The translations under genes and the position numbers were made by a program. Shown piece by piece: positions 23,987-40,594 of a stretch of DNA of 40,594 nt (position 1 is its first letter; each line of letters begins with the position of its first letter). The DNA is from a virus (lineage: Duplodnaviria; Caudoviricetes), in the IMG/VR virus record IMGVR_UViG_3300032212_000053, positions 1 through 40,594 of that record; one strand, written 5' to 3'. The notes beneath the pieces were generated by a model, which had not been told where the DNA came from, searched no databases, and worked only from the letters and a program-made list of their open reading frames with translations.

Positions 23987-24004
23987 AGAGGTTAAAGGCA
24001 AATT

Positions 24005-24451
24005 ATGACAATAGCAAGAGAGTTTCTTTCTGATACACTTATCGATGAAATGCAAAACTACTTTGGGCTAGGTTATAAAGCATATAATGATGACGAAGAT
24101 TTAGAACTTGACCCTAACTGGGACACATACAAAGCCTTGCAGGATAGCAATCTTTTATTTATCTTTACTGTTAGAGACGGTTCTAAACTTGTTGGATATG
24201 CTTGGTATATTGCAATGCCAAGTCTCCATAGTAAGTCTACTATATTCGCTGCAGCCGACACAATTTACTTAGATAAGGATTATAGAGGTAGATTTTTAGG
24301 TATTAAGTTATTTAAGTACGCGGAAGAAGTACTTAAAGAGAATAAAATTACCTTAGTTCTTTACAGTGTTAAAGTGTATGAGAATTGGGGTAAACTTCTA
24401 GAGCGTTTGGGATATAAACAATCAGAAGTCACTTACCAGAAAAGGATATAA
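24005..24451 (+). CDS. GNAT-family acetyltransferase
   Basis: LVGY; IYL..DYRGRFLGIKL motif A; LLERLGY. Confidence 0.85.
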   Translation: MTIAREFLSDTLIDEMQNYFGLGYKAYNDDEDLELDPNWDTYKALQDSNLLFIFTVRDGSKLVGYAWYIAMPSLHSKSTIFAAADTIYLDKDYRGRFLGIKLFKYAEEVLKENKITLVLYSVKVYENWGKLLERLGYKQSEVTYQKRI

Positions 24452-24452
24452 T

Positions 24453-25145
24453 ATGGTAGGAGCAGCAGTAGTATCAGCCGGGGCAGCTATTTATAGTGCA
24501 TATGAATCCGGCGAACAGGCAGACCAAGCTCAGTCAAGCCAAGAGCAAGCAATGGCACAACAGCAAGCTATAGCTGATGAGCAGATGGCTTATCAACAAG
24601 AATTACGTTCACAATGGGACCAAACTTTTGGTAGTGTAGAACGTAACTTAAGCGATTATTACAATAACTTAAGCCCAGAGAAACTAACTACAGCTGGTGT
24701 GCAAGCTAATCAGGAATCATTCCAAGCTGTACAGAAACAATTACAGCAAACATTAGCTCAAAGAGGTATTAGCGGAACAGGTGTTGAAGCTCAAGGGCTT
24801 ACGCAATTAGCTGTTAGTCAAGCACAACAAGACGCTAATGTTCGTGTGAATGCTCCACAACAAGTAGCTCAACAGCAACAAGGTTTTTATAGTTTAGGTA
24901 TTCCTCAGAAGCAAGCTATTCAAGGTGGAATTAATTCGGCTTATGGTTCTCAGATGGGAGTACAACAAGGTGCTTATAATCACTACAGTAATCAGTATAA
25001 TCAAGCACAACAAGCACAAAATGCTGCTTATGGTTCATTAGCTAATGTGGTAGGACAAACAGCAGCATACTATGGTGCTGAAACACAACCTCAGACACAA
25101 CCTTATAACCCATATGCACAGCCAACTACAGGAGGAACAAAATAA
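24453..25145 (+). CDS. Internal virion / ejection protein
   Basis: Ala/Gly N-terminus; Gln-rich; LAQRGISG; position. Confidence 0.7.
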   Translation: MVGAAVVSAGAAIYSAYESGEQADQAQSSQEQAMAQQQAIADEQMAYQQELRSQWDQTFGSVERNLSDYYNNLSPEKLTTAGVQANQESFQAVQKQLQQTLAQRGISGTGVEAQGLTQLAVSQAQQDANVRVNAPQQVAQQQQGFYSLGIPQKQAIQGGINSAYGSQMGVQQGAYNHYSNQYNQAQQAQNAAYGSLANVVGQTAAYYGAETQPQTQPYNPYAQPTTGGTK

Positions 25146-26899
25146 TGAGTTTTGGGCCAGGATTAGGCGCTGCGGCGGCAAATGCTTTTGCTTCAGGCGT
25201 ACAAGGACAACAACAAGGTGTAGATAGAGGACAAGCTAGGGAACGTGCAGCATTGCAAAATCAAAAGCTTCAGCAAGATTTACAGGCAGGAGCCTACCAG
25301 CAGTCGTTACAAAAGTCTCCGGAACAAGTTGAAGCTGAAATGCAGATACTAGCAGAGCAAACAAAAAATATGCAGAATGAGCTAAATAAGAAGAAAGTGT
25401 TTAGTGCTTTTGATAACTGGGGAGGTGATACTGAACTTCTTAATAAAGAACTAGTTAATAATAAACAAATTAATAGCGCGTTATCAGCTGAATTACCTGG
25501 TTTTACTCAGATGTATAAAGTTAGAGATATTAATCTTAATTCTCCTGCTGATGAATTACGTTTACAAAGAGATAGTAAAGGTATTGTTACCTTAGAGCAA
25601 ATAAAAGCTATTCAAGAATCTCGTAGACAAATGATGAATATGACGGGTGAAGAGTTAAGACAGCAAGGGCTAAACCCAGATTTAGATGGTTTTAATAGAT
25701 TTGTTATGGTTGATGGTGTAGACCAAGAAGGAAATACAGTATCACAGGTAGTTGATATGATGTCAGTTTATGAAAGAACTGGATACCTGGGTGGTTTACA
25801 TGACCGTAGACAGAAGGAAGCATTAGAAGCGGCTAAGCGCGCGGCTGAGAAAGCTAAAGCAGCGACAGGTGGCTCAAGCAGAGCACTAACACAAGTTGAA
25901 GCTGATGAAAGAGACCGTAAAGCTGCTGTGGCTCGTGGAGATTTTCCAGCTGATGGTTCTTTAAAAGAATTTCAAGACCAGCAAAAAGAAGCCACTAGAG
26001 AAAAGATTAGCACTAAGAATCGTTTACAAAGAGCCAAGGAAGGTACTTACTATGAGCAGGAAGTTGATGAAGACGGAAATAAATTACCTTTAACATATGT
26101 ACAAGAAACCATGAGTAAGCGTGAAGGTGATTTTAGAGCGTCACTAACAGAAGTAGCTAAAAAGAATGCTGATAAAGAATTATCAGAAAATGAATTTACA
26201 ACTATTTTAAACAGAGCTAAGGATTTACAAGTTGATACCAAAGGTAACCCTGTAACACCAGATAAAAAATTACTTGATGAAGTAAATAATAAAACACGTG
26301 TCCTTCCTGGGTTCAAGCAATTGCTAGATAAGATACAAACACTTGATATGAGTAGAAGTGCTTTTGAAAAAGTAAAAACAGGCTTAGCTAAGTTAGGTGT
26401 ACATGGTAATTATAACGAAAAAGAAATGGCACAGTTCTTAAATAAGGTTAGCTTTGATGCGGAGTTACAGACACTAATGGCACAATTTGTTAAAGATATG
26501 TCTGGGGCTGCAGTTACAGAGCAAGAGAGAGCTATGTATTCTAAAACCATTGCTGGTGGTGACTGGGGAAATAAACAAGCTATGGAGGCTGCATTATCAG
26601 GATTTATAAATAGTCTTTCACAACAGCATGAAACAAACTTGGAGACTTTACACTCGGATGCTCCGGCAACCTACTTGATTAAACAAAGAGATTATGATAA
26701 ACAGTTAAATAAGTTCGCTAAAGTCGAAGGAGTGAACCAGACACGTGAAACACCTTCTAACATTCAAGAAGATGCTAAGCCAGCAGATGCTGCAGCCGCA
26801 TATAAAGAGTATGCAATGCAATATAAAGATGCTAAGCCTGGTACACCAGAATATGCTGAGAAGTTAAGACTTTTCAAAGCTATGAAAGAGAGTAAGTAA
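25145..26899 (+). CDS. Internal virion / ejection protein
   Basis: Helical; MSGAAVTEQE motif; position. Confidence 0.65.
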   Translation: MSFGPGLGAAAANAFASGVQGQQQGVDRGQARERAALQNQKLQQDLQAGAYQQSLQKSPEQVEAEMQILAEQTKNMQNELNKKKVFSAFDNWGGDTELLNKELVNNKQINSALSAELPGFTQMYKVRDINLNSPADELRLQRDSKGIVTLEQIKAIQESRRQMMNMTGEELRQQGLNPDLDGFNRFVMVDGVDQEGNTVSQVVDMMSVYERTGYLGGLHDRRQKEALEAAKRAAEKAKAATGGSSRALTQVEADERDRKAAVARGDFPADGSLKEFQDQQKEATREKISTKNRLQRAKEGTYYEQEVDEDGNKLPLTYVQETMSKREGDFRASLTEVAKKNADKELSENEFTTILNRAKDLQVDTKGNPVTPDKKLLDEVNNKTRVLPGFKQLLDKIQTLDMSRSAFEKVKTGLAKLGVHGNYNEKEMAQFLNKVSFDAELQTLMAQFVKDMSGAAVTEQERAMYSKTIAGGDWGNKQAMEAALSGFINSLSQQHETNLETLHSDAPATYLIKQRDYDKQLNKFAKVEGVNQTRETPSNIQEDAKPADAAAAYKEYAMQYKDAKPGTPEYAEKLRLFKAMKESK

Positions 26900-28731
26900 T
26901 GAAGACAGATATTAAAACATTACAAGATAGTTTTAAGCTAGGACATGATACTTTCTTGGAGTCTCGTAAAGAGGCTACAAGAGCTACAGATTACTTTCAT
27001 AATAGACAGTATGATTTGGACCAACTTAACACATTAGCTACTCGTGGACAACCTGCTGAGACATTCAATGTTATTAAGTTATTTAGTAGATTAACAATAG
27101 GTTATTACTCAACTATCCTTAACACTGTTAAAGTTGAGCCAGTTCAAATCAATGATATTAATACGGCAGCATTATTAAATGATGGTGTTGACCATATTAT
27201 GCGTAATAATAGTTTTGAGCATACTGGTGACGACCTTAAACTAGATGGTTTACTATCTGGTATTATGTGTTTACATGTTGATGTTGTTGAGACAGGTACT
27301 AAAGATAGCTTTGGAAGACCTATTAATCGTGTTAAGTTAGAGCAGGTAAACTCTGAAGAAGTTGTGCTAGACCCTATGAGTAGAAAGCGTGACTATAGTG
27401 ATGGTAGATTCTTACATAGATTTAGATGGCTAACCGAAGAGAAGGTTGAAGAACTATTTGGTACAGATAAGATGGAAGAGCTACAGGCTTTTGATAATCA
27501 TCTAAATACTAAAGAGTCTGAGTTTGCTAATAAGTATAACATTCAGTTCCAAGGTGAGTATAAAGTCTTCGATAACTATTTAGTAGTTCATACTGTTATC
27601 ACTGACAATGAGCAAAAAGTTTGGGAGATATTCTGGTCTGGTGATACTATCTTGTCAAAGAAAGAAGTGACATATAAAGATGTTAAACCTTATAGAGTTC
27701 AGAAGATTCATAACTCTAACAAATCAGAATACTACGGAATGTTTAGAGAAATTCTAGAGTCTCAAGATGCTATTAATCAAGCATTAATTAAGATTCAGCT
27801 TATGGCTAACTCTCAGAAAGCTTTTGTACAAACAGATGCTGTTGAGGACATGGATGAGTTTGTTGATGCGTTCAATAGAGTTACTGCAGTTATGGAAATG
27901 CAAAATATTAATGGTGTACGTATTGAGAACTTAACAAGAGAAGTAGCTGACCAGTATACAATTATCGACAAAGCTTTCGATCGTATCCAACAAGTACTAG
28001 GTATTAATGATAGCTTCTTAGGACAAGCTTTTGCCTCTGATAGCGGTCGTAAAGTTAAACTACAGCAGAACCAAACTATTATGTCACTTAGATACATTAC
28101 GTCACCATTGCAAGAAATGTACACAGGAATAGGTTGGGATTGTGTTAACCTTATGAAGCAGTATTACTATGCTAATCAGATACTAAGAATAGTTGATGAG
28201 TCTGTCGGTGAGCGCTGGATTGAGCTAAATCGTCCTGAGATGCAATTCTCTGGTAAGTATGACCCTTTAACTAGTGAACCTATTATGGTACCACTAATGG
28301 AAGAAGTATTAGACCCTGAGAATAATGAACCGCTTGAGCAGAATGGTGCTATAGTTGTTGCTCCGATTCCAACAGAAGATACAGACATAGCTTTCTCAAA
28401 TGTTGATATTACGATTGAAGTATCTGCTTATAATGATGAAGATGAGAAGAACCAACTATTTATGGAGACGTTCTTATCAGGTCCAGTAGGGCAGAACTTA
28501 AGCCAAGCTAATCCTGCAGGATACTTTAAAGCAGCTAGTTTAGGTATCAAGACTCTTAAAACTAGATATAGCCCAGAAATTTCAGCTATATTAGAACAGA
28601 CGTCTCAGATGCTTAGTCCGCAGATGCAACAGCAAATGCAAGCAGGTCAGTTACCTGGACAAAGCGGAGGACAACAAGCACCTAAGAGTGCTGAGTTGAA
28701 ACTCCCACAGAATACAAATGAAGGTGCATAG
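26899..28731 (+). CDS. Portal protein (P22-like)
   Basis: Y...QY....L..RGQP..TFN.I; DP.S...D.SD.RF; GIND..LG....SG; Gln-rich tail. Confidence 0.9.
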   Translation: MKTDIKTLQDSFKLGHDTFLESRKEATRATDYFHNRQYDLDQLNTLATRGQPAETFNVIKLFSRLTIGYYSTILNTVKVEPVQINDINTAALLNDGVDHIMRNNSFEHTGDDLKLDGLLSGIMCLHVDVVETGTKDSFGRPINRVKLEQVNSEEVVLDPMSRKRDYSDGRFLHRFRWLTEEKVEELFGTDKMEELQAFDNHLNTKESEFANKYNIQFQGEYKVFDNYLVVHTVITDNEQKVWEIFWSGDTILSKKEVTYKDVKPYRVQKIHNSNKSEYYGMFREILESQDAINQALIKIQLMANSQKAFVQTDAVEDMDEFVDAFNRVTAVMEMQNINGVRIENLTREVADQYTIIDKAFDRIQQVLGINDSFLGQAFASDSGRKVKLQQNQTIMSLRYITSPLQEMYTGIGWDCVNLMKQYYYANQILRIVDESVGERWIELNRPEMQFSGKYDPLTSEPIMVPLMEEVLDPENNEPLEQNGAIVVAPIPTEDTDIAFSNVDITIEVSAYNDEDEKNQLFMETFLSGPVGQNLSQANPAGYFKAASLGIKTLKTRYSPEISAILEQTSQMLSPQMQQQMQAGQLPGQSGGQQAPKSAELKLPQNTNEGA

Positions 28732-30996
28732 ATGACTTTAGAAGAAGAAATGGCAGCATACGATGCTGGCCTAGCAGATGAAATGTCTGCTTATGATATG
28801 GAGCAAGGTATCGAAACACCAAGCGCCGGCACTCCAACGGCACCTGTTGAGACTGATGCAGATTATGCTCCTGGTGGACAATTCGCAGCCCCTGTTATAG
28901 ATGAGAATACAGAAGTAGCACAACCAAAAGGTGTCACTGATTACCTAGGAGATATAGCTAACGCGCCTAGTGAAGTTGGCCAAGAGTTTGCAAAGTTCTT
29001 AGCTTATCCTATGATGCAAGGTAAAGAGAATGCTCCAGATGCTGGACAAGCTATTAGAGATACCTTGGCTACAGTTGGTGAAGGTGCAGCAGCAACAGCT
29101 CTAGGTGTGATTAAATCTGGTGCTGACTTAGTTGGGCTTCTTCCTAACGTTGACACTAGTGAGTTCTTAGATGATGAACTAAGTGTACTTAACACCGCTA
29201 TAGAAGACTATAAAACTAAATATAAGGTCGACGGTATTACTGCTGAAGACTTCGGTAGATTTTTACCTAGCTTAGCTACATTAGGTGCGAGTACATCAAG
29301 TAAATTAATAGTACCTATTATTGAAGGTTTATTAGTTACTGGTGAACAACGTGGTGCAGGCGCAAAGGCTGGTGAAGCTTTTATGACAGGAGCGTTGACA
29401 GCCGCAGGTACTGCAGGATTAGGTTTAATTCTAGATTCAATTCTTCCTCCTACTAAGAAAGCTTTACTTAAGTATTTACAAGAGGAACATGATATCTCTG
29501 ATACTGCAGCAGACCAAATGCTACTAAGATATAAAACACTAATGAAAGCTGACGATTCAGCAGATAGTAGAATTAAAGCTATTATCGATCAACTAGGTGG
29601 TGCAGAAGGTTATACATTAAAACATGCTGCTACAGAGCTTGGACCAAAAGCCGCGAAGTCTATTAGATTAGAGTCTTTAGGTCGTAAGAAGCTAATGAGA
29701 GATTTAGTTAAATCAAGCCAAGGTTTAGTTGGTAGAGCTTCAGTTGACCAGTTAAGTGCTTTTAGTAAAACACTACAGACTGCACAAAAAGGTTTACAAG
29801 ATTCTTACACTAGTATGAAGGCCTTAATGCCTGAGACACCTATTAAGAATACATTCGTTACTAATGCCTTAGACATTACCTCTACGTTAAAGACACTGGA
29901 TGGTGACTTTGTAAGTGCTTCAGCAAAAGAGACAGCGGGTGGGATTACTAAAGTGCGTACAGAAAATGCTAAAGGTATTGCAGAAACCTTAACTGAGAAG
30001 ACTAAAACAAAGCTGTCTGTTCCTGAGTTAGAAGAAGCTAAAACAGCTACAGGCTTTCTAAAGCAGTTACTAACGTCAGACGAGCTTACACCTAAAACAC
30101 TAGTTGAAGCTATTAGATTATCAAAAGATATAAGCCCAAACTTAGATGCTATTGGTAAAGCGTCAATGAAAAATCTTAGTAATGATTTAGAAAATGTTTT
30201 AAAAGCTAATATTAGTAAAGAACAGTATAGCTTATTTAAGAAAAATAAAAGTGACTATAGCCAAATGCTAGGTCTCAAGGACCATTACATCGGTAAGTCT
30301 TTAAATAATATTTATGACAAGAAACTGAACCCTAAAGGTACTCAGACTGCTGGTGAGGTTATGGAAGAGTTAAGAGCTATTAATCATTCTAGTGAAGGTG
30401 TTCTTAATAGTATCTATAAAGTAGCTGGAGGTTCTGCAGAAGAGAAATTTGAGCAGTCTTTAATAACTGATATGTTAGAAGAGAATGTTAAAGGTGGGTC
30501 ATCTACTTTTGTTAGCTTCGGTGAATTAAATGACGTTATTAAGAATAAAGGGTTTATTAGTAAGTATGGACAAAATTTCCAGAAACTAACTGATATAGCT
30601 TCTAAGAGTTTTGCCACTGATGATACAATTAAAGCTGCTTTATATAAGACACCTCACGCTACATTAGAACGTTTAGCTAGTGTGCAAGGTCAAGGTAAGA
30701 TGTGGTTAGTTGGTAGAATTTGGCCTCATATTGAAAAGAGATTTCCAACAGAAGCTGCTAAGCATGCTAGATATGGTGATGCTTTAAAAGCTATTATGTC
30801 TAAGCCTACATTTGCTAAGACTGCGCAAGAAGTTTTGGAGGAGTTACCAGAGTATGAGAAACAGCTAATTAGAGCTGATTTAAGTCAGAGTGTGAAAGAG
30901 TTCTTATCTACAGATGCTGCGAAGATGGGATTTGCAAGAAGCGTAGGTACTGCAGGTGCAGCAACGGTTGAAGCTACTCCATCTATAGGGCAGTAG
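28732..30996 (+). CDS. Large internal virion / ejection protein
   Basis: 754 aa helical, Ala/Gly hydrophobic patches; last late gene. Confidence 0.6.
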   Translation: MTLEEEMAAYDAGLADEMSAYDMEQGIETPSAGTPTAPVETDADYAPGGQFAAPVIDENTEVAQPKGVTDYLGDIANAPSEVGQEFAKFLAYPMMQGKENAPDAGQAIRDTLATVGEGAAATALGVIKSGADLVGLLPNVDTSEFLDDELSVLNTAIEDYKTKYKVDGITAEDFGRFLPSLATLGASTSSKLIVPIIEGLLVTGEQRGAGAKAGEAFMTGALTAAGTAGLGLILDSILPPTKKALLKYLQEEHDISDTAADQMLLRYKTLMKADDSADSRIKAIIDQLGGAEGYTLKHAATELGPKAAKSIRLESLGRKKLMRDLVKSSQGLVGRASVDQLSAFSKTLQTAQKGLQDSYTSMKALMPETPIKNTFVTNALDITSTLKTLDGDFVSASAKETAGGITKVRTENAKGIAETLTEKTKTKLSVPELEEAKTATGFLKQLLTSDELTPKTLVEAIRLSKDISPNLDAIGKASMKNLSNDLENVLKANISKEQYSLFKKNKSDYSQMLGLKDHYIGKSLNNIYDKKLNPKGTQTAGEVMEELRAINHSSEGVLNSIYKVAGGSAEEKFEQSLITDMLEENVKGGSSTFVSFGELNDVIKNKGFISKYGQNFQKLTDIASKSFATDDTIKAALYKTPHATLERLASVQGQGKMWLVGRIWPHIEKRFPTEAAKHARYGDALKAIMSKPTFAKTAQEVLEELPEYEKQLIRADLSQSVKEFLSTDAAKMGFARSVGTAGAATVEATPSIGQ

Positions 30997-32239
30997 CTTC
31001 ATAAGTACTATTATTAAAGTCTTGCTTCTTAGAGACTTTCTTATATACTTGGCTTGAAATAGCTTTCTTGACAAGTATATGATGAACCTCTAACGACTCA
31101 CTTCCTTCAGTATTAATAATACGGTCGCGACGCTGTATAAACTTAGCACCAGAATAGTCGCTACTAAGTATAACAAAACTTTTAAGATGAGATAAATCAA
31201 CACCTTCGGCATGAGCACTAGAGCTATATAGCTTAGCATGCTTAAAATGTTTTTCAAGTAGTTTACGCTCACCAACGAAGTGGCACATAATTCCTGTAGT
31301 TTCTTCATCTCCAAACGTTTCCTTTATATAATCTATCTTTTCAGTATTGCCTAATTCGATATACTCATCATCAATCTTAGCTATTCCAGACTCCATCATA
31401 TGTAACGATGTTCTTAGCTTCATAGTTGTATCACAAACTAAAGTATATTCATCTTCAGAATTGATAGCCATTACTTTAAGTATGTTATCTTTTTGTAGTT
31501 GATTATAACCTAGTTTAGTATTCTTACTAAGTTCAACATAATGCTCAACATCTTTAGCTTGTAGAGCCTTATCAATGCCAGCATCTTCTTGTGTCATATA
31601 AATAGTAAAGCTATCTATAATAGGCATAAGTTCTGGCTTTGCTCTTTCATATTGAGGCATGTCTCTGCCTTGTACCTTAATATAATACTTGTCTCCATAC
31701 TGCCTATGGAAGTCGTAGAAGTTGCGATGTTTGAACGGAGTGTATTTAGATATTGCCATCTGATGATAGATACCACAAGGACTTTCAACGACAGCTGTTC
31801 CACTTAAATGGATATGGGGTAGATTAGCACATAGCTCTTGTATCTTCTGGATTCTAATAGAAGGCTTACCAAGAACACCTAAGTTATGAGATTCATCTAT
31901 AATAACTAGTTGATAGTCTTCAGGATTAATCTTAAGTTTATAAACCATTTTACCAGACTTCAACTTAGTACGTTTCATAATCTGCTCATAGTTAATAACA
32001 GTATAATCATGTTGTAGATTAAGTGAAGGTTCTTGTGTAAACTTTTCCCAACCACCAATAGCAGCCTTCTTAGTTAGTACTAGAACCTTATCAACTTTCT
32101 GTGAGTGCTCAGCAGCTAAGATAGCTGTGAGAGTTTTACCACTACGAGGTTTACCTGCTAGATACGAATATCCTCTTTGCTTTAGCATATCAAATACTAA
32201 AGCAGCGAATTTAACTTGATGTGGTTTAGGAGTAATCAT
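30983..32239 (-). CDS. SF2 (SNF2-like) helicase
   Basis: GKPRSGKT, NYE, IIDESH, LSGT, EGVDL, Q...RI. Confidence 0.88.
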   Translation of the reverse strand: MITPKPHQVKFAALVFDMLKQRGYSYLAGKPRSGKTLTAILAAEHSQKVDKVLVLTKKAAIGGWEKFTQEPSLNLQHDYTVINYEQIMKRTKLKSGKMVYKLKINPEDYQLVIIDESHNLGVLGKPSIRIQKIQELCANLPHIHLSGTAVVESPCGIYHQMAISKYTPFKHRNFYDFHRQYGDKYYIKVQGRDMPQYERAKPELMPIIDSFTIYMTQEDAGIDKALQAKDVEHYVELSKNTKLGYNQLQKDNILKVMAINSEDEYTLVCDTTMKLRTSLHMMESGIAKIDDEYIELGNTEKIDYIKETFGDEETTGIMCHFVGERKLLEKHFKHAKLYSSSAHAEGVDLSHLKSFVILSSDYSGAKFIQRRDRIINTEGSESLEVHHILVKKAISSQVYKKVSKKQDFNNSTYEATAL

Positions 32240-32529
32240 AGTTTTGCGATTTGCTCGCCAAGTTCTTTATGAAAAGCTTTAAGAGTAGCAATAGCTTTCT
32301 CATTAACTTCTTTGAAGTCTTCTTCATCATAATTAACTACTAGGTTAAAAGGTTTAACATCAATGTAAACCGAACAGTTTCTATCCATCTCAAAATCAAT
32401 AACGTCTTGGTCTGAATGTCTTGTGTGTCTAAATGAAAACAGTTCTAGCTGTTCCATAATGCCTTCTGGTGTATCTGACTCAATACCAGTATCTTTTGTT
32501 GTTAGTGTTTTATTTTCTTCTAAGCTCAT
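32236..32529 (-). CDS. Hypothetical protein, 97 aa
   Basis: Coupled ORF. Confidence 0.65.
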   Translation of the reverse strand: MSLEENKTLTTKDTGIESDTPEGIMEQLELFSFRHTRHSDQDVIDFEMDRNCSVYIDVKPFNLVVNYDEEDFKEVNEKAIATLKAFHKELGEQIAKL

Positions 32530-32800
32530 CTAAATCCCCCAGGAATGGTTTAACTTGTGTTTCAGACCACATCACTTCTGAGTGGCCACCTATATCTTCT
32601 ATCGTATCTAAGTGGTGTCTTTGTAATGGCGTAACATTCTCCTTAGTTGAAGGACGTTTAACCTCAACGGCGAAGAACATGCCTCTATAGCAACCTATTA
32701 AATCAGGAATACCTTTCTTAGTATAGATACCATTAACTATATAACAGCCTTCTTTCTCAAAGGCTTTAATAATTTTAGATTGTATTTTCTGCTCTGACAT
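32510..32800 (-). CDS. VRR-NUC nuclease / Holliday junction resolvase
   Basis: E..IQ..I, GIPDL, AVEVK, LQ. Confidence 0.9.
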   Translation of the reverse strand: MSEQKIQSKIIKAFEKEGCYIVNGIYTKKGIPDLIGCYRGMFFAVEVKRPSTKENVTPLQRHHLDTIEDIGGHSEVMWSETQVKPFLGDLDELRRK

Positions 32801-33036
32801 TATGCAAAGTCTTTACAAGTAAAATCAGCTTCAATCCAGCCATGGTTATTAGGAGCTATACAGCGTAAACCTTTAGCACCTTTGTCTGTAGAGAATGCAC
32901 AGTCTGCACAAGTACCTTGAGTAACTTCTACCTTCTCTGGCCCAGTAACTTCTTTCTTTGTGGGTTTATTACCCAAACCTAGGATTTTCTTTAGTTGTAA
33001 AACTACTAAGTTCCACGCTACTATTAAACTTTGCAT
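32800..33036 (-). CDS. Small Cys-rich protein
   Basis: CADC...C...C..F. Confidence 0.65.
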   Translation of the reverse strand: MQSLIVAWNLVVLQLKKILGLGNKPTKKEVTGPEKVEVTQGTCADCAFSTDKGAKGLRCIAPNNHGWIEADFTCKDFA

Positions 33037-33923
33037 TAATCTATCTCCGATATCAATTTGTCATCTCTTATTTGAAGAAATGTTGGTTGTATATATGTTG
33101 CCATGATTTGTTCGTACTCAATCTCAACAACACTGCCTATGAAACGTAAAGGTAAGTTTGTTCTATCTGCATCAGATAAACCAGAACCAACACTAACGCG
33201 TCTACCTCTCTTATCACGTAAAACAAGAGCACCGATTAAGCCTTCATACTTACCTTCACCTGGTACAGTATCAATACATTCTAAGTCAACTGTTTTACGA
33301 TACTTTAGTTTAATGCTGTAATTTACACGCTTACCTGGTAAATAAGGCTCATAGGGTGAAGACAGCATAGCTCCTTCCCAACCATTATTTACCAGCCCCT
33401 TAGCAATCTCTTTAGCTTCAGCTCCTGTGACAAGCTGTGTCTCAATTACTTTTGTATATGTAGTTGAGTGTAAAACTAGCCTAGCTGCTGATAGCCGGCG
33501 TTCATAAAGCATATCTAAATCTAGGTCACCTTCATCAATATCTATGTAGTCAAAGACTTGAATATTAGAAAACCTTTCATCACCAGCATAGTTTACTAAA
33601 CCTTTTGCAAAGCTTGTTCTATATGTAGTTAAGATAGCTGAGTTTCTTCTATCTCCTAGTTGACCTAAACTATTGTGCATAAATTCTGCGATTAATACAT
33701 AGCTACCTTTTGTTTTTGCTTTAAGGTCTTCAGCTACACCAAGAATACAAAACTGTTTCCAGTCTGAGGTATACATAGTTACTTCATCTTCTTCTTTAAC
33801 AATGAAGATTTGGTTACCATCATACTTAGTAGATAATAAAAACTTATCTGTATCAAAGGTAGCTAATGCTTTCTTAGGTAGCTTATCGAAAGCCTTACCT
33901 TTTTGCGGCTTAAACTGTTTCAT
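33036..33923 (-). CDS. ATP-dependent DNA ligase
   Basis: KYDG, VFD, EGAML, KLK, VGSGLSD, P.F..IR.DK. Confidence 0.92.
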   Translation of the reverse strand: MKQFKPQKGKAFDKLPKKALATFDTDKFLLSTKYDGNQIFIVKEEDEVTMYTSDWKQFCILGVAEDLKAKTKGSYVLIAEFMHNSLGQLGDRRNSAILTTYRTSFAKGLVNYAGDERFSNIQVFDYIDIDEGDLDLDMLYERRLSAARLVLHSTTYTKVIETQLVTGAEAKEIAKGLVNNGWEGAMLSSPYEPYLPGKRVNYSIKLKYRKTVDLECIDTVPGEGKYEGLIGALVLRDKRGRRVSVGSGLSDADRTNLPLRFIGSVVEIEYEQIMATYIQPTFLQIRDDKLISEID

Positions 33924-34455
33924 TATTTATTACCAAAACCATGTAATCTAGTGAGCACCCAAAGAAGTGATTAATAGGATAGCGTTCTTGAACTTTCATC
34001 GGAATTACTAACTCTCTTTGTGAGTTATCACTTAACATTACCATGAATGTATCAGGTATAAATGAATGCTTTGTTTCTATAGTTATAATAGTAGGCTCAG
34101 GACATTGCTGCTTCTCAAACTCTATCTTTTGCTGTTCATAGGTAGGGTCAGTATTTTTAATAAAGTTACCATTAGCATTTAAGAAGCCTTGTCTGTCTTT
34201 AATATCATCCCAAGCTTTACTACCACATTCAGCTAGGGAATGTCCTTTAAGTGCAGCGATATTAGTTAGTACTACAAAACAATCTCCAATATCATCTTTA
34301 ACATCTTTATCCTTAGCTAAGTTATCTGCTAATTCTCCAAGCTCACTCATTAGTTTTAAACATTGAGTAATAGCATTACCGTTTGTTAAGATACCTTTGT
34401 CATGTGACCATTCCAGTATTTTTATGTTTAATTGTTCTAGTGTATATTGTTTCAT
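33910..34455 (-). CDS. MazG-like nucleotide pyrophosphohydrolase with C-terminal extension
   Basis: Q.LKL.SE.GEL, DDIGD..V.L, A...IKDR.G...NG.FIK. Confidence 0.88.
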   Translation of the reverse strand: MKQYTLEQLNIKILEWSHDKGILTNGNAITQCLKLMSELGELADNLAKDKDVKDDIGDCFVVLTNIAALKGHSLAECGSKAWDDIKDRQGFLNANGNFIKNTDPTYEQQKIEFEKQQCPEPTIITIETKHSFIPDTFMVMLSDNSQRELVIPMKVQERYPINHFFGCSLDYMVLVINNETV

Positions 34456-34679
34456 TTTGTTTTCTCCAATTCGTATTTTAGGTTCTCTTTCCCAAAAGGG
34501 TGAAGAACAACTCCAACTTTTTCAAAGACTCTAAGAGCAACAGTGAGGCTAGCATTATAGCTATGTTCTTTCTTATAAGCCGATAGCATGCTATCACTTA
34601 TCCCAAGAAACTTAGCTATTTCTTTGCTTGTATCAAAGTCACATGCAAGCTCTTTAATATAGTCATGAATAAATTTCAT
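34452..34679 (-). CDS. Helix-turn-helix DNA-binding protein
   Basis: SKEIAKFLGISDSMLSAYK. Confidence 0.75.
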   Translation of the reverse strand: MKFIHDYIKELACDFDTSKEIAKFLGISDSMLSAYKKEHSYNASLTVALRVFEKVGVVLHPFGKENLKYELEKTK

Positions 34680-34711
34680 TTATAACCTTTATAAGATTTT
34701 ATTATATCTCC

Positions 34712-34790
34712 TATATGGACTTTTATCATCAACTAATATCATAATATAGGTTAATCGATAAAAGTCTCATATGGGTAAGATATGGGACTA
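34712..34790. repeat. ~79 bp imperfect palindromic element, copy 2, abutting a minus-strand TATAAT (34701-34706)
   Basis: GACTTTTATC (34718-34727) / GATAAAAGTC (34757-34766); aligns with 1085-1162. Confidence 0.7.
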
Positions 34791-35393
34791 ATTTTTGATA
34801 TTTAACGCAATCAAAAATGATACATTTGTCAGAGCATGTGCAAGGTGAGGTAAGCCCGATTCTTCATCTACCTCTTCACCACTTCTCCAAGCTTCCAGGT
34901 GACGATACAGTGCATCAATATAGCGAGTTGCATCATCAACTTCTCTCCAGTTGTTTGGTTTGTATTTCTTAGCTCCGTAAGTTAATACCTCTGCTAAGGC
35001 TTTAGTAGCCTCTGGTGGAATTAAGCCATAACGAAGCTTACCAGTATCAAACTTCATGAACTGCTCAGATACTATCACATTGTCAATGCCGGCTCCTATA
35101 ATAGCAGTAGCACAATTGTCACAAGGCTTATGTGTTACATAGATAGTATGCGGCTTCTTTTTAGTATTGCCTAAGTTTTGAATAGCAGCAACTTCAGCGT
35201 GAATAACATAAGGGAAAGTCTTACCATTATTATCTTCACAATTACCATCGTTTAGTACTTCTGGATTATAGTTAGTTCCAGAGCTTAGAATTCCACCGCA
35301 GTTATCAACAATAACAGCAGCAACTTTACGCTTCTTACATGAGCAATGCTTTAGCGTCTGGTCTAAAACATCTTGAATCTCTTTAGGTATCAT
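34788..35393 (-). CDS. dCMP deaminase fused to a DUF5664 (dATP/dGTP diphosphohydrolase-like) domain
   Basis: HAE and PCDNC; KFD.GK.RY.LIP...GAKKY..NNW...D.ESGLPHL.HA. Confidence 0.88.
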   Translation of the reverse strand: MIPKEIQDVLDQTLKHCSCKKRKVAAVIVDNCGGILSSGTNYNPEVLNDGNCEDNNGKTFPYVIHAEVAAIQNLGNTKKKPHTIYVTHKPCDNCATAIIGAGIDNVIVSEQFMKFDTGKLRYGLIPPEATKALAEVLTYGAKKYKPNNWREVDDATRYIDALYRHLEAWRSGEEVDEESGLPHLAHALTNVSFLIALNIKN

Positions 35394-35746
35394 AAGTATA
35401 ACTCCATATTTTGGCGTTTAACCAGTAGCTCATAGCCAGATAATCTAAATTCATATCCGCCATCAAGGTCGTCATTACTACGAACAACAATTAATAAGTC
35501 TGGTTTTTGTTTGAAAGTATCAATACCGAAGTTGATATCGTACTCAGCCTCACAGCTAGTAGTAAAGTATGCAGACTTAAGAATACTCTTAGGTAAGCTA
35601 TTTAACGTCTCTTTACTACATAACACTCTTTTGCCTTTAATAAGTCTTGTGATAAAGTCTTTATCCCAAGAAGGACGAGCAGGTAATTGCCCTTGCTCTC
35701 CTATATACTTATTATTCTTACTTAATAAAACTACGCCTAATGTCAT
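35390..35746 (-). CDS. Divergent, short dihydrofolate reductase-like protein
   Basis: IG..GQLP, D..F, K.V....T..SLP; adjacent to the ThyA-family gene. Confidence 0.65.
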   Translation of the reverse strand: MTLGVVLLSKNNKYIGEQGQLPARPSWDKDFITRLIKGKRVLCSKETLNSLPKSILKSAYFTTSCEAEYDINFGIDTFKQKPDLLIVVRSNDDLDGGYEFRLSGYELLVKRQNMELYL

Positions 35747-35747
35747 G

Positions 35748-36533
35748 TTAAGCCTTCAATTCAAATTTAATCGGCTGGTCGTGGATATACTCACGAAGCT
35801 CTAAGTTAGCTGGAACCCATTCTGAAACTTTTGTATTACCTGTATAGACAAACTTAGGTAATCTATATATCTCTCTTCCAAGATATTCATAAGCTGGCTC
35901 AATATGCTCATCATAGATATGAGTATCACCAAAGACCATGGTTACTTTACCTGGAATAAGATTAGTTTCAGAAGCCATAGCTATATTCCATGCGGCAGCA
36001 AGGATTGCATCTGAAGGTACACCAATCATAAGGTCTGCACTTCTTTGGTACCACATCATGTCTAGTTTACCATCTCTCACATACCATTGATATAGTAAGT
36101 GACAACAAGGTAAGTCTAGGTTTTTAATGTTGTTAGGCTTCCAACCAGTGATAAGCATGCGACGATTTGTTGGGTCTGTTTTAATCATATTAAGAACTTC
36201 TTCAAGTTGATTAACACCATTAAAGTCAATCCAAGTATTACCGTAATCAACATTAATAGAACCATCAGGCTTAGCCCAGTCTCTCCAATAGTTACAACCG
36301 AATGCTTCAAAATCTGCTAAGGCCTTTGGACCACGTAGCATAGCTGCTAATTCACCTAGAACACCTTTATAAAACATCTTACGACCTGTAAGTAATGGAA
36401 AGCCATCCTCTAAGTCGAAAGATAATGTCTTAGCAAAAGAAGATAATGTTTTACCATTTCTACCTTCTGTCTGCTTGCCTTCAGCTAATAGCTCTTTAAC
36501 TATTAATTTGTATTGTAATTCGTAGCTATTCAT
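35748..36533 (-). CDS. thyA: Thymidylate synthase-family enzyme with Asp at the Asn177 position; start corrected to 36533
   Basis: GRNG, FPLLT.RK, GEL, RR, PCCH, YQRSAD, GVPSD, DTHIY..H. Confidence 0.9.
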   Translation of the reverse strand: MNSYELQYKLIVKELLAEGKQTEGRNGKTLSSFAKTLSFDLEDGFPLLTGRKMFYKGVLGELAAMLRGPKALADFEAFGCNYWRDWAKPDGSINVDYGNTWIDFNGVNQLEEVLNMIKTDPTNRRMLITGWKPNNIKNLDLPCCHLLYQWYVRDGKLDMMWYQRSADLMIGVPSDAILAAAWNIAMASETNLIPGKVTMVFGDTHIYDEHIEPAYEYLGREIYRLPKFVYTGNTKVSEWVPANLELREYIHDQPIKFELKA

Positions 36534-37383
36534 CTTCACTTCCTTTCGGTGACCATAAGTCAATTTTAAAATTCTCACCATCTTTAACTAAGCAGTGCAT
36601 GTTAACTAATTGCATAGTTAACGTTGCAGCTTCTTCAGTTAAGCCTTTGCTATCCCAAGCGCGGCAAACACCTTCCCAAAGCTCTTCATGTGTCATGTTT
36701 TCATTAACAAACTTCAGTGCTTTCTTAGGACCTAAGCCTTTAACACCTGGAACGTTATCAGAAGTATCACCTAAGATACATTGTAGATAAGGCCACATTC
36801 TAGCTTCACCTTCTGCAACTTCAACGAAGTGCATATCTTTATTAAAGTGGCGTGACTCATAGTAGTTAAAGTGGCGACCAGGAAGACATTTAATAACATC
36901 TTTATCAATCGCACACATAATGTACTTATCAGGGTTTTCAGCTTTTAAATGAACTACCATATCATCAGCTTCCCACTTAAGGGACATTGTTGAGTCGTAG
37001 CGTTCCATAAGATTAGCTTTACACTCTTTCAAACCTACAGGAGCTTTAGCTGCACCTTCTTTGGTACGATTAGCTTTATACTCAGGAAAGATAGCATATC
37101 TAAAGTTCTCACGACCACCAGTGAAGTGTAGCTCCGCTGTCATACAACCTGTACGGTCTAAGATACGTTGAATCTTTTCTTCAGCTATCTTAAGTGCTTC
37201 AGTGTCGTCAATAATAAACTCACCATCTGCTAACTCTTCTTGAGCTGCAAGACAAGCTGTGAAAGCTACAGTATCTGCATCAATCAAAGCAATCTTATCA
37301 TTTTTCTCTGGTAGTTGCTCACCACCAAAACCTATATCTAAATCTTCTAGCTCTTCATCAGTGCCTTGAATTCCATCAATCAT
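36526..37383 (-). CDS. 5'-3' exonuclease (T7 gp6/FEN-like)
   Basis: IDAD, YKANR, EADD, DKD, GD.SDNVPGV.GLG.K.A. Confidence 0.92.
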   Translation of the reverse strand: MIDGIQGTDEELEDLDIGFGGEQLPEKNDKIALIDADTVAFTACLAAQEELADGEFIIDDTEALKIAEEKIQRILDRTGCMTAELHFTGGRENFRYAIFPEYKANRTKEGAAKAPVGLKECKANLMERYDSTMSLKWEADDMVVHLKAENPDKYIMCAIDKDVIKCLPGRHFNYYESRHFNKDMHFVEVAEGEARMWPYLQCILGDTSDNVPGVKGLGPKKALKFVNENMTHEELWEGVCRAWDSKGLTEEAATLTMQLVNMHCLVKDGENFKIDLWSPKGSEDE

Positions 37384-37384
37384 G

Positions 37385-37930
37385 TTACTTACCTCTTACT
37401 TTATCTAAGGTAACACAAACCATTTTAATCTGATGAATACAATCATCAATAGCATTATGCTTTGTGCCTTCAAATGGAATTTCAACTTCTTTATAAGGAA
37501 GTAAATCAACAACGGTTCTAACATCTTTATCACACCAGTACATTAATGGAAAGTCTACAGAATGTCTACGATATAGATTTCTAAGCCAAACATTATCGGC
37601 AGAAATACCATTACCCCATAAACGAACATCATTAAGTTTATCATGGCAAGACGTAATAAAGTCAGTAACTTTCTCAAGTCCAGTAAGTAGCTTAACACGT
37701 TTAGCAGTAATTAAAGCATTCTTAGCTTCATTGCTTTGCTCGTTCCACCACTTTAAAGTATCTTCATCAATCTTACCCCCGTTTAAGGCTTGAGGTAAGA
37801 CATCTAAGGATACCTCCAGCTTCTTACCGATAACCCCAGTATCTAAATCAAACTCAACTAATGCAATAGATGTAACTACTGCATTGTTATCTAGAGATAA
37901 GGTCTCTAAGTCCATCATAATATCACGCAT
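37385..37930 (-). CDS. DEDDh 3'-5' exonuclease
   Basis: DLET, WGNG..AD, D.RT, HNA.DD. Confidence 0.88.
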   Translation of the reverse strand: MRDIMMDLETLSLDNNAVVTSIALVEFDLDTGVIGKKLEVSLDVLPQALNGGKIDEDTLKWWNEQSNEAKNALITAKRVKLLTGLEKVTDFITSCHDKLNDVRLWGNGISADNVWLRNLYRRHSVDFPLMYWCDKDVRTVVDLLPYKEVEIPFEGTKHNAIDDCIHQIKMVCVTLDKVRGK

Positions 37931-37939
37931 GTCTTCTCC

Positions 37940-39634
37940 TTAAGCCGCTTGGCTATGTTCTGCATCTACTGGCATTGGTATGTCTTTGTAGTGCATAAGG
38001 TCACACTTACAAATCTCTTCCCATGCTTTCTGCATATTTCTCACCATAATCTCTCGATAGTGGTCAACTCGTGTGTTAGGTACTCTAGCATTGATTTGGT
38101 CATGTACAACATTATAAATCATACTAATCATCTCAGGTGCTTCTTTAAGTATATAGTGAACAGCTAATTTAGTTGTCTCACCAATTGTACCTTGTGTTGG
38201 AATATTAATAGCATCTGTACCAAGCTTTGGTTTAGCACGACGACCAAGAGCAGTTCTAACAACGTAAGAAGGTTTCTTATAGTTATTCCATGCTGCTTGG
38301 TGATATCTATTAATAGCCGGATAGTGTTTCGAATACTTAGCTTTAATAGCCTGCGCTTCAGCTAATGTAAACGTTACACCATAGTTTAAGAATGCAAACT
38401 CTTGGAATGAAGCTGCTGACATACCGAAGATAAAACCGAAACTAACTGCTTTACCTTTCTGTCTATCTGCTTTAGTAATATCTTCAATAGGTTTACCTGT
38501 TGCCATAGAAGCAGAAACTTTATGTAAGTCGATACCAGCTTTCAGCTCGTTGTACATAACTTCTTCTTTCATAATAGAACAAGCAGCACGTAGCTCAGCA
38601 GTACCGAAGTCACATTCAATAACTGTTGTATCTTCTGTATCTTCATTGAATAAGTACTGAAGGTCTCTAGTTATCTGTTGACTGTTAATGCCTCTTGGCA
38701 AGTCACCACCTGTGGCAGTAAATCTACCAGTAACAGCACCAGCAACATTAAATCTAGTATAAACCTTAGGATAGTTATAGCTAATTAGGAATGTTCTACG
38801 TTTGATTAGACGACGTTGTTCATACACTGCTTTTGCAATGGTATTATCTTCGGCAATTAATCTAATTAACGTAGCTTTATCTGAACTGTCTGTTCCTAAT
38901 ACTGCTTTAACCTGTTTAGGACTATTACAATTAAGACCAGTCCAAGCTTTCTTAGCATCATATCCATAAGGTTCACGTACGTTATCTAAGATAACAGAGT
39001 TAACATCAATCTTAGCTTGTACATCATCTAGCTCTTTCATAACCGAGGTTTGGTCTACTTCTAAACCATTCTCTTGATACTCAATCGCATATTTCATAGA
39101 TAAGATATCAACTTTATAAGCTAATACATCTCTATACTGCTGAATGTTTGGGTCTTCCCATAACTTACTAATAGCAACAACGTCAGTTGCAGCATATAAT
39201 AGTTGTTGCTGCGAAAGATAAGCACCTATAACATAAGACTTTTGCATTTGCTTCTTGTCTAAGTTAGCATATAATCCATCAAGACCAAACTTAGATAGTA
39301 CTTTATCTAGCGCAAACTCCATCCATTGTGGATAAGCAGACTTAGTTAAGTAGATTAAATCATCAAAGCGGTCTGTAGTCATGTTCAATGTACCGAAGTC
39401 ATATGAAGCATTGTACCAAACTGTCCATAATGGTTTAATAAAATCTTTAGCCTCTTGTAAATCTAATATATCAGTGTCGATAATATAGACTAAGTCTGAA
39501 GCTTGTGGTTGGAATAGCTGGATAAGTCTCGTGTTGATGTATAAGCCATCTGACTCAATATCAGCAAAGACTGGTAAGTTTTGGTCGAAGGTTGGAATTT
39601 CTTCCAATGAGTCGACTACTTTGAATTTAACCAT
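37940..39634 (-). CDS. Family A DNA polymerase with 3'-5' exonuclease domain
   Basis: Exo DIE, N..YD, YA..D; pol TGRF, DF...ELR, R...K...FG..FG, QG, VHD. Confidence 0.95.
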   Translation of the reverse strand: MVKFKVVDSLEEIPTFDQNLPVFADIESDGLYINTRLIQLFQPQASDLVYIIDTDILDLQEAKDFIKPLWTVWYNASYDFGTLNMTTDRFDDLIYLTKSAYPQWMEFALDKVLSKFGLDGLYANLDKKQMQKSYVIGAYLSQQQLLYAATDVVAISKLWEDPNIQQYRDVLAYKVDILSMKYAIEYQENGLEVDQTSVMKELDDVQAKIDVNSVILDNVREPYGYDAKKAWTGLNCNSPKQVKAVLGTDSSDKATLIRLIAEDNTIAKAVYEQRRLIKRRTFLISYNYPKVYTRFNVAGAVTGRFTATGGDLPRGINSQQITRDLQYLFNEDTEDTTVIECDFGTAELRAACSIMKEEVMYNELKAGIDLHKVSASMATGKPIEDITKADRQKGKAVSFGFIFGMSAASFQEFAFLNYGVTFTLAEAQAIKAKYSKHYPAINRYHQAAWNNYKKPSYVVRTALGRRAKPKLGTDAINIPTQGTIGETTKLAVHYILKEAPEMISMIYNVVHDQINARVPNTRVDHYREIMVRNMQKAWEEICKCDLMHYKDIPMPVDAEHSQAA

Positions 39635-39672
39635 TAACTTCCTTTATTCAGTTGAGTTGTTATTAACGAAGC

Positions 39673-39702
39673 AAATAAAAAGGCAAGACCGTAGCCTCAC
39701 CT
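39673..39702 (-). terminator. Intrinsic terminator after ssb
   Basis: AGGTGAGGC-TACG-GTCTTGCCT-TTTTATTT. Confidence 0.75.
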
Positions 39703-39714
39703 AATTATCTATTC

Positions 39715-40386
39715 TTAAAGGTCTGGTTGTTCGCCAGACTCTTCAATTGGAGCAACGTAGTCGTCACCCATATCAATAGCTTCAGATTCAATATCTTCGT
39801 CGATATCAACACCTTCACCCTCACCTTTAACTAGTTTACCTAGTTGAACAGCAGATAAATATAATGTTACTTTATCAGAACCACCAATGTTGTTACCTTG
39901 TGCTGTACCATGGATGATTCCTGTTGAACCTTCACCAATGAACCAATCAGCTCTTGCATATGCTTCAGTAATGTCAGCTGTTTTGCTTTCACCATTGTTA
40001 CCATATAACTTAATAGCTTGTGGTTTACCATCAGGCCATTTAGTGTTTGTTTTAAAAGTAATTAAAGTATTACCTGTTTCAACTTTGCGAACTTCTTCAG
40101 TTGCAGGGTCAATGTCAGTTTTGTCATCTGACGGCTTAGTCTCTGGTTTCATACCATTTGTACCTGGTAGACCTTTAACATTGTTAGCTTTTTTATATGT
40201 TGCCCACTCTTCATCAACTAGTGCTTGAAAAGCTTTATGTGCTGGACCATCTGTAGGAACTGAAAGACTTGCAACGAATTGCATTCTAGGTTCTTCACCA
40301 GGCATTGCACCATTACGACCATCACCTTTGATGAATACATACTTTAGCTTACCAACTTGTGTTTTTACTTTTGTACCTTTTGCCAT
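39715..40386 (-). CDS. Single-stranded DNA-binding protein (T7 gp2.5-like)
   Basis: IGEGS.G and LYL.AVQ..KL pattern; acidic tail; upstream of the polymerase. Confidence 0.8.
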   Translation of the reverse strand: MAKGTKVKTQVGKLKYVFIKGDGRNGAMPGEEPRMQFVASLSVPTDGPAHKAFQALVDEEWATYKKANNVKGLPGTNGMKPETKPSDDKTDIDPATEEVRKVETGNTLITFKTNTKWPDGKPQAIKLYGNNGESKTADITEAYARADWFIGEGSTGIIHGTAQGNNIGGSDKVTLYLSAVQLGKLVKGEGEGVDIDEDIESEAIDMGDDYVAPIEESGEQPDL

Positions 40387-40467
40387 TTGTTTTACCTTGT
40401 TTTAGTTTTGTTTTACGTTGTTTAGTAGCATACTACTATTTGCTTATCCTTGTGATAGGCTTAATAA

Positions 40468-40594
40468 AAGGTGGTAAGTAGACGCTAACCACCCTCTATA
40501 AGCTTAGCCAACCATAAACTATGCTTTAAAAAATATGGATTAATCAGGAGTCACTATGGCAATGTTAGACCATATCCCTTGCGGGTAACACCGA
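40468..40594. repeat. Second copy of the 127 bp terminal repeat
   Basis: Identical to 1-127. Confidence 0.95.

What the first reader, a model, noticed from the sequence alone, without database searches (positions are those of the whole stretch)
33910..36533. Candidate 5-methyl-dCMP pathway: Asn177Asp ThyA + DHFR + dCMP deaminase-DUF5664 + MazG
Seen: the ThyA homologue reads YQRSADLMIGVPSD, against E. coli YQRSCDVFLGLPFN, so Asp (codon 36009-36011) replaces Asn177; the other catalytic residues look intact. Established: this residue discriminates dUMP from dCMP. N177D (L. casei N229D) converts ThyA into a dCMP methylase, and T4 dCMP hydroxymethylase has Asp here. Hydroxymethylases do not oxidise folate, so the adjacent DHFR points to reductive methylation. 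Inference, two models: (a) 5mC is incorporated genome-wide, as in Xanthomonas phage Xp12, with MazG or DUF5664 removing dCTP; (b) a non-canonical route dCMP -> 5m-dCMP -> dTMP through the adjacent deaminase. I saw no dNMP kinase gene.
Basis: partly seen in the sequence, partly recalled or inferred. Interest (0 to 1): 0.85.

Follow-up and report, generated by a model that had tools for sequence, protein, structure and literature searches.

The report
Podophage 5-methylcytosine module, candidate hidden kinase
This complete 40.6-kb phage genome carries a thymidylate-synthase gene with the aspartate that likely makes it methylate cytosine nucleotides, so the phage likely builds its DNA with 5-methylcytosine and likely makes thymidine from the same product, a recipe already known from phage Xp12; what may be new is that a small fused domain, which trades places with nucleotide kinases in related phages, would be the pathway's missing kinase.

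Summary
Observation confirmed: codon 36009-36011 is Asp at E. coli ThyA Asn177, other catalytic residues are intact, and 120 of 120 listed homologues share it. The chemistry is known. Xp12 has the same four functions, and Yang et al. (bioRxiv 2024) showed such enzymes make 5mdC and linked deaminases turn 5mdCTP into dTTP. This scan noted the cassette on other DNA before.

Variant features: a separate TS clade (26% to Xp12, His147 kept) of Kafunavirus-like podophages, a 118-aa DHFR-fold protein, and a MazG replacing PRA-PH. Site avoidance favours 5mC DNA: GATC 7 vs 108 expected, GGCC/CCGG/GCGC/CGCG not avoided.

Most interesting: 75 of 81 Asp-TS groups carry exactly one of DUF5664, DUF6378, DUF1599-like or a dNMP kinase, and none carries two (17.6 expected). 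Xp12 and RDJL Phi1 show the swap inside one fusion protein. DUF5664 may thus be the missing 5m-dCMP kinase. The lead came from an earlier scan note. Against it, the one assayed DUF5664 is a slow dNTP pyrophosphatase. Nothing here was assayed.

The parts
35748..36533 (-). ThyA-fold enzyme, Asp175 at the N177 position, PCCH/PSD clade; predicted dCMP C5-methyltransferase
36009..36011 (-). GAT codon, Asp175 (= E. coli ThyA Asn177)
35390..35746 (-). 118-aa DHFR-fold protein, own family without Pfam annotation; Asp28 (likely the Asp27 equivalent) nearly invariant; activity untested
35073..35393 (-). N-terminal PF00383 zinc deaminase domain (HAE, PCxxC intact) of the 201-aa fusion; predicted 5-methyl-dC nucleotide deaminase; boundary approximate
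34788..35072 (-). C-terminal DUF5664 (PF18909) domain; fills the slot held by dNMP kinase, DUF6378 or a DUF1599-like domain in relatives; candidate 5m-dCMP kinase
34452..34679 (-). small HTH protein, same position in close relatives; probably not an enzyme of the pathway
33910..34455 (-). MazG-like all-alpha NTP pyrophosphatase; replaces the PRA-PH-type enzyme of most relatives; predicted dCTPase/dUTPase
1..40594 (.). complete phage genome (direct terminal repeats); GATC nearly absent, GGCC/CCGG/GCGC/CGCG not avoided; no dNMP kinase found

Best explanation
The phage likely methylates dCMP with its Asp177 ThyA-fold enzyme, likely phosphorylates the product and builds 5-methylcytosine into most of its DNA against host restriction, and likely deaminates part of the 5-methyl-dC nucleotide pool to make thymidine. 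Shown here: the residues, folds, gene order and co-occurrence. Inferred steps: (1) TS: dCMP + CH2-THF -> 5m-dCMP + DHF; (2) the mini-DHFR recycles DHF; (3) the MazG removes dCTP (and dUTP), feeding dCMP back; (4) 5m-dCMP is phosphorylated by DUF5664 or a host kinase, the least certain step; (5) the PF00383 domain deaminates 5m-dCTP (or 5m-dCMP) to dTTP (dTMP); (6) the phage PolA incorporates 5m-dCTP.
For: Asp at 177 with the catalytic set intact, conserved in 120 of 120 listed homologues. Yang 2021 and 2024 tie Asp177 to cytosine-modified contigs; 5 of 7 tested Asp-TS made 5mdC in vivo; the top neighbours there are TS, PRA-PH and PolA within 3 kb of the deaminase, the layout of this clade. Xp12, AXL1 and RDJL Phi1 carry pyrophosphatase-TS-deaminase-DHFR. 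Among 81 Asp-TS groups: NTP-pyrophosphatase 68, deaminase 61, kinase-slot domain 75; among 17 Asn-TS groups 2, 2 and 1. VPMS1, Kolga and G002 have the Asp-TS but no PF00383 deaminase genome-wide, so the product is not only a route to dT. Window: GATC 7/108, AATT 0.77, but GGCC 29/28, CCGG 24/23, GCGC 37/35, CGCG 19/16. Xp12 DNA is cut by DpnII and MboI (GATC) and MluCI (AATT), not by HaeIII, HhaI, HpaII or BstUI. Clade loci avoid these four GC palindromes less than control phage loci of equal GC (O/E 0.94 vs 0.74, 53 vs 41 loci, p 5e-8).
Against: No member of this clade is shown here to have modified DNA; I could not see the sequences Yang et al. tested, and 2 of their 7 gave no 5mdC. In their data 17 unmodified contigs also had TS beside a deaminase, and only 53% of those were predicted to make dT. 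His147 is retained, while position 147 differed between modified and unmodified contigs and Xp12 has Pro there. Against Asn-TS loci the palindrome contrast is weak (0.93 vs 0.83, p 0.08; 6-mers 0.91 vs 0.79, p 0.004; GC not matched). GATC loss can come from host Dam/MutH (recalled), and Xp12 does not avoid GATC (269/280). VPMS1 DNA is reported to give HhaI bands (PMC4870561). Neighbour HMMs were built from the Asp clade, which biases the Asn control low. No recognisable kinase in the genome.
Confidence: 0.7

Rival explanations
1. Bypass only: the enzyme makes 5m-dCMP, the deaminase converts it all to dTMP, and the DNA keeps ordinary cytosine.
For: No recognisable kinase in this genome or in KF-1, PH1, Amaethon, Kolga. 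Some unmodified MetaGPA contigs carry non-dT-type TS beside a deaminase. Reported HhaI bands for VPMS1.
Against: 20 of 81 Asp groups lack a nearby deaminase, and three near-complete genomes lack one entirely. G002 has TS plus kinase only. A pyrophosphatase is kept in 68 of 81. VPMS1 has 148 HhaI sites with a largest fragment of 1.8 kb; the paper's text speaks of bands shared by three different phages, so that gel cannot be read as a complete digest (figure not seen). Xp12, fully methylated, also lacks a recognisable kinase.
Confidence: 0.14
2. The enzyme is a dCMP hydroxymethylase and the DNA holds 5hmC or a derivative.
For: Asp177 is shared with T4 gp42; the DHFR-fold protein is shortened and absent from most of the clade.
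Against: 23% to T4 gp42 over 142 aa vs 34% to ThyA; folate-site W80/W83 and a ThyA-like C-terminus retained; no glycosyl- or carbamoyltransferase among 46 ORFs scanned; GATC enzymes do not cut 5hmC DNA but do cut 5mC DNA.
Confidence: 0.07
3. The enzyme still methylates dUMP; the cluster is an ordinary dTTP-supply operon (deaminase, TS, DHFR, dUTPase).
For: Closer to canonical ThyA than to Xp12's enzyme; His147 kept; passes TIGR03284 cut-off; Wayne DUF5664 hydrolyses dUTP.
Against: Asn->Asp switches specificity (cited); Asp is invariant over about 40-60% identity; two clade groups that read Asn exist, and one of them (L064) has lost pyrophosphatase and deaminase.
Confidence: 0.07

Closest known systems
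Xanthomonas phage Xp12 / PaMx74 / AXL1 5-methylcytosine module (MT664984: QNN97215, QNN97214, QNN97213, QNN97212)
   Same: Asp177 TS, PF00383 deaminase, DHFR, all-alpha NTP pyrophosphatase and a small helical domain in one block; no recognisable dNMP kinase.
   Different: TS only 25.7% identical, outside this clade in a quick tree; Xp12 has C-P and GLPYD, this has C-C-H and GVPSD; DUF5664 fused to the deaminase rather than a DUF1599-like domain fused to PRA-PH; MazG-type pyrophosphatase; 118-aa DHFR; podophage layout; no HhH-GPD glycosylase hit.
MetaGPA Asp177 TS + methylation-selective deaminases (mSCD-B5; Yang et al. eLife 2021, bioRxiv 2024.12.05.627091)
   Same: Asp-TS within 3 kb of a PF00383 deaminase, near PolA; same proposed route 5mdCTP -> dTTP.
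   Different: mSCD-B5 is a single 154-aa domain; no DUF5664 fusion, kinase or DHFR is discussed in the parts read. Whether this clade was among those tested cannot be told.
Kafunavirus-like podophages KF-1, IW-1, ETP-1, ZHX, Amaethon, VPMS1, PH1
   Same: TS 45-55% identical with Asp, capsid 49-60%, deaminase::DUF5664 fusion in KF-1, Amaethon, PH1.
   Different: They have PRA-PH after TS and no DHFR; annotated as plain thymidylate synthase; no modification data found.
DUF5664 of Arthrobacter phage Wayne (ALY10775; NAR 2026, PMC12884076)
   Same: 41% identity over 78 aa to the window's domain.
   Different: Assayed as a dATP/dUTP/dGTP -> dNMP pyrophosphohydrolase (kcat 0.48/s for dATP) in a Z-genome phage; dCTP is not named as a substrate and phosphotransfer is not mentioned in the section read.
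Roseobacter phage RDJL Phi1 block (PRA-PH::dNMP kinase, TS GLPYD, deaminase, DHFR)
   Same: Same four functions; shows a true kinase in the block.
   Different: Xp12-type TS; kinase domain where Xp12 has a DUF1599-like domain.

Membership tests
ThyA-fold dCMP C5-methyltransferase (Xp12-type function) | ThyA fold with catalytic Cys, Arg, Asp169, His207/Tyr209 | tested here: met
ThyA-fold dCMP C5-methyltransferase (Xp12-type function) | Asp at E. coli position 177 | tested here: met
ThyA-fold dCMP C5-methyltransferase (Xp12-type function) | Linked deaminase, NTP pyrophosphatase and DHFR | tested here: met
   (family or fold only, activities untested)
ThyA-fold dCMP C5-methyltransferase (Xp12-type function) | Makes 5m-dCMP; 5mC replaces C in virion DNA | not testable with these tools
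   only indirect site-avoidance evidence
Xp12/Pamexvirus TS sequence clade | CP(T/V/I) and GLPYD motifs, grouping with Xp12 TS | tested here: not met
   PCCH/GVPSD, 25.7% identity, separate clade SH-aLRT 99; Xp12 is a long branch and no one-clade test was run
Canonical ThyA (dUMP) | Asn177 | tested here: not met
T4-type dCMP hydroxymethylase | gp42-like sequence (FRND motif) and hypermodification partners | tested here: not met
   23% over 142 aa; no partner among 46 ORFs
Dihydrofolate reductase (35390-35746) | DHFR fold | tested here: met
   Foldseek E 1.5e-6; VIA Z 12.0, rmsd 2.5, 113 aligned; RibD-C-like reductases score Z about 10
Dihydrofolate reductase (35390-35746) | Full folate/NADPH site and activity | tested here: inconclusive
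   Asp28 nearly invariant, but 118 aa against about 155-165 for bacterial DHFR chains; profile match to a canonical DHFR weak (E 0.007)
Methylation-selective deaminase (mSCD) | Preference for 5mC nucleotides | not testable with these tools
   trait is polyphyletic with no sequence signature given
P-loop dNMP kinase (for DUF5664) | P-loop / phrog_139 or PF21448 match | tested here: not met
   any kinase role would be by another fold

The most novel reading that the evidence does not exclude
DUF5664, DUF6378 and DUF1599-like domains are small non-P-loop nucleotide phosphotransferases that activate 5-methyl-dCMP. DUF5664 might move pyrophosphate from dATP or dGTP in one step, with its reported slow hydrolysis a side reaction. 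The window's protein would then join 5m-dC activation and deamination in one chain, and Xp12's unidentified kinase would be the C-terminal domain of QNN97215. A second, independently derived clade of 5mC phages, including cultured Kafunavirus-like podophages and pelagiphage Kolga, would be unrecognised.
Probability: 0.35. Interest if true: 0.78.

Novelty: new variant of a known kind. Interest (0 to 1): 0.45.

Why it matters
The pathway is known, so the cassette itself is of modest interest. Two things are testable at once. Several cultured phages annotated as having plain thymidylate synthase are predicted to have 5mC DNA. And the gene-swap pattern names candidates for the one unassigned step, phosphorylation of 5m-dCMP, which would give a function to three widespread phage domains and possibly a new kinase fold. 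The deaminase is also a candidate 5mC-selective enzyme of the type used for methylome sequencing.

Tried and rejected
Single-protein locus scan gave 1 clade member among 11 loci; alignments were needed. Homology among the three DUFs is not shown: hhalign DUF6378-DUF1599 E 0.0009-0.014, DUF5664-DUF6378 E 0.004 then 0.36, DUF5664-DUF1599 none; atlas searches returned only own-family or unnamed clusters; no solved structure for DUF5664. The DUF5664-deaminase profile hit is an overlap artefact. Pfam PF07659 did not ring on Xp12, so 'DUF1599-like' there rests on phrog_1485 (E 2.4e-5) and my own HMM, and the PF07659 negatives are weak; the PF19905 search had no positive control. Kinase-led scan: 2 of 80 loci had a ThyA (both Xp12-type, PRA-PH::kinase, no DUF); the rest say little. 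eLife supplements hold no protein motifs in the text held, and the zip is cut. Profile search of the mini-DHFR against PDB sequences found no DHFR. GTDB scan: 13 loci, all on MAG contigs of 2.7-46 kb, none shown to be chromosomal. No modification data for KF-1, Amaethon or VPMS1 in searches. The Iyer et al. 2013 paper on Nmad domains was not held. The careful tree did not finish; only the quick tree is used. No complex prediction was run.
Full report
Setting. The window is a whole virus record of 40,594 bases with direct terminal repeats, 100% complete by CheckV. Its capsid is 49-60% identical to Pseudoalteromonas phage PH1, Vibrio phage VPMS1, Edwardsiella phage KF-1 and relatives, and Dickeya phage Amaethon. 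The minus-strand replication block reads PolA, exonucleases, TS, DHFR-like, deaminase::DUF5664, HTH, MazG, ligase.

Observation. Confirmed at the stated codon. The alignment to solved ThyA is ungapped through the motif, and the model (pLDDT 95.8) superposes on E. coli ThyA at TM 0.95. All catalytic residues checked are present; the nucleophile is C144. All 120 listed homologues of 831 found have Asp.

The enzyme's clade. Identity is 33.6% to E. coli ThyA, 25.7% to Xp12 TS and 23% (142 aa) to T4 gp42. In a quick tree of 71 rows, 63 rows form a clade with SH-aLRT 99; Xp12 and gp42 are long branches whose place is unsure. An independent origin of Asp177 is likely but untested. Cultured members are KF-1, IW-1, ETP-1, ZHX, Amaethon, VPMS1, PH1 and Kolga (Asp read directly in VPMS1, KF-1, Amaethon, PH1 and Kolga).

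What is known. Yang et al. 2021 (PMC8670742; passages and section 11; supplements searched) found Asp177 in modified contigs and named position 147 as the other differing site. Yang et al. 2024 (bioRxiv 2024.12.05.627091; parts 1-3 of 11 and sections 20, 21, 43 and passages; supplementary figures and sequences not seen) showed 5 of 7 deaminase-linked Asp-TS make 5mdC in vivo when T4 gp1 kinase is supplied. They showed mSCD-B5 deaminates 5mdCTP but not monophosphates, and proposed that this replaces a dUMP synthase in 5mC phages. Xp12 carries pyrophosphatase, TS, deaminase and DHFR in a row, as does AXL1, whose DNA resists most enzymes tested (PMC9206674, passages). Earlier scan notes reached the same reading on other genomes.

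Neighbourhood survey. One search examined 251 loci; 248 had a readable residue 177. Grouped at 80% identity there were 127 Asp and 20 Asn groups; 81 and 17 had at least 2 kb on both sides and were counted, the rest dropped. Within 5 kb of the Asp enzymes: NTP pyrophosphatase 68, deaminase 61, DHFR 19. For the Asn enzymes: 2, 2, 7. The HMMs were built from Asp-clade neighbours, which lowers the Asn counts. PRA-PH and MazG types never co-occurred in the first survey and are related (E 7e-6), so the window's MazG likely fills the dCTPase slot. Two clade groups read Asn: L064 keeps only the mini-DHFR nearby (DUF5664 6 kb away, no deaminase in its genome), but L265/L292 keep PRA-PH and DUF6378.

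The kinase slot. An earlier scan note (e1-10044314) said a small domain swaps with kinases; I tested this. Of 81 Asp groups, 75 have exactly one of DUF5664 (38), DUF6378 (22), DUF1599-like (10) or dNMP kinase (5); 6 have none, 5 of them divergent non-PCCH enzymes; none has two, against 17.6 in shuffles (0 of 5000). Kinase groups have a DUF in 0 of 5, others in 70 of 76 (Fisher 1.8e-5; groups are related, so this overstates independence). With short-flank groups included it is 0 of 8. In the first survey, merging at 70% gave 1 of 3 and p 0.035. Sister loci L079 and L086 (support 99) read TS-PRA-PH-DUF6378-deaminase and TS-PRA-PH-kinase-deaminase. Xp12's gene before TS is PRA-PH fused to a DUF1599-like domain, while RDJL Phi1, L187 and L191 have PRA-PH fused to a dNMP kinase. 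Whole-record searches found no phrog_139 kinase in the window, Xp12, KF-1, PH1, Kolga, Amaethon or G008; VPMS1 gave only a weak hit (E 1e-3, 37 positions) in a 755-aa frame; the positive controls G002 and RDJL Phi1 rang. No DUF5664 was found in the kinase-bearing G002, G003, G004, G005, G006, G007 or RDJL Phi1, several of them incomplete. That Xp12 induces a 5m-dCMP kinase is recalled, not from a call.

Against the kinase reading. Wayne DUF5664, 41% identical over 78 aa, hydrolyses dATP, dUTP and dGTP to monophosphates, slowly (PMC12884076; abstract, passages, section 20). DUF5664 also occurs in phages with no annotated TS, such as TW1 and fEV-1. Homology of the three DUFs is not shown. Searches listed no paper assigning kinase activity to them (listings only, apart from PMC12884076); subscription papers are not covered.

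Mini-DHFR. The 118-aa ORF belongs to a family of 77 proteins with no precomputed Pfam domain. Its model (pLDDT 94) matches DHFRs best. It follows the TS directly in 12 of 81 Asp groups but also in the Asn revertant L064, so it supports folate oxidation, not base choice.

Is the DNA modified? Only indirect evidence. The window almost lacks GATC (7 vs 108) and is low in AATT (0.77), yet does not avoid GGCC, CCGG, GCGC, CGCG, AGCT or TCGA. In Flodman et al. (PMC7653180; passages and supplementary table) Xp12 DNA is cut at GATC and AATT but not at GGCC, GCGC, CCGG, CGCG or AGCT, and 5hmC DNA is not cut at GATC. Clade loci avoid GC palindromes less than kinase-bearing control loci (53 vs 41), and the TS-less phages TW1 and fEV-1 avoid C-containing 6-mer palindromes (0.73, 0.45). 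The contrast with Asn-TS loci is weaker (87 vs 17). Hosts differ between sets and host Dam could explain GATC loss (recalled). CCWGG, which BstNI cuts in 5mC DNA, is only mildly low (58/70). The reported HhaI bands of VPMS1 (PMC4870561, passages, figure not seen) stand against, but a full digest would give nothing above 1.8 kb.

Verdict. Real, and mostly a known system: a 5-methyl-dCMP module that works like Xp12's but is not in Xp12's sequence clade. Confidence about 0.88 that the TS acts on dCMP as a methylase and 0.7 that the DNA is largely 5mC. The open and more interesting point is the kinase slot (0.35). Interest 0.45.

Noticed in passing
L025:9089-10792: The 5'-3' exonuclease and the Asp-TS are one 567-aa ORF; in the window they are adjacent genes.
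   Followed up: no
L064:9998-10813; L265, L292: PCCH-clade enzymes with Asn at 177, natural revertants useful as assay controls.
   Followed up: partly
L015:16974-17456 (Xp12 QNN97216): HhH-GPD glycosylase beside the Xp12 module, perhaps for T:G repair; no such hit among 46 window ORFs.
   Followed up: no
L104, L105 (Gracilibacteria MAG contigs): Clade TS matches by tblastn but no TS ORF under table 11; may use a recoded stop codon.
   Followed up: no
window 1-40594: CpG is depleted (rho 0.57; clade median 0.70 vs 0.83 in control loci), but Xp12 is not (1.02).
   Followed up: partly
window 37940-39634: PolA is only about 30% identical to its best matches, PH1 and an Aquificae hot-spring virus.
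   Followed up: no
L017 (Kolga), L042-L049, L074: The same TS clade sits in phages with other replication modules, suggesting the module moves between lineages.
   Followed up: partly
L330, L341, L346, L326, L080: Asp-TS outside the PCCH clade with none of the slot domains detected nearby.
   Followed up: no
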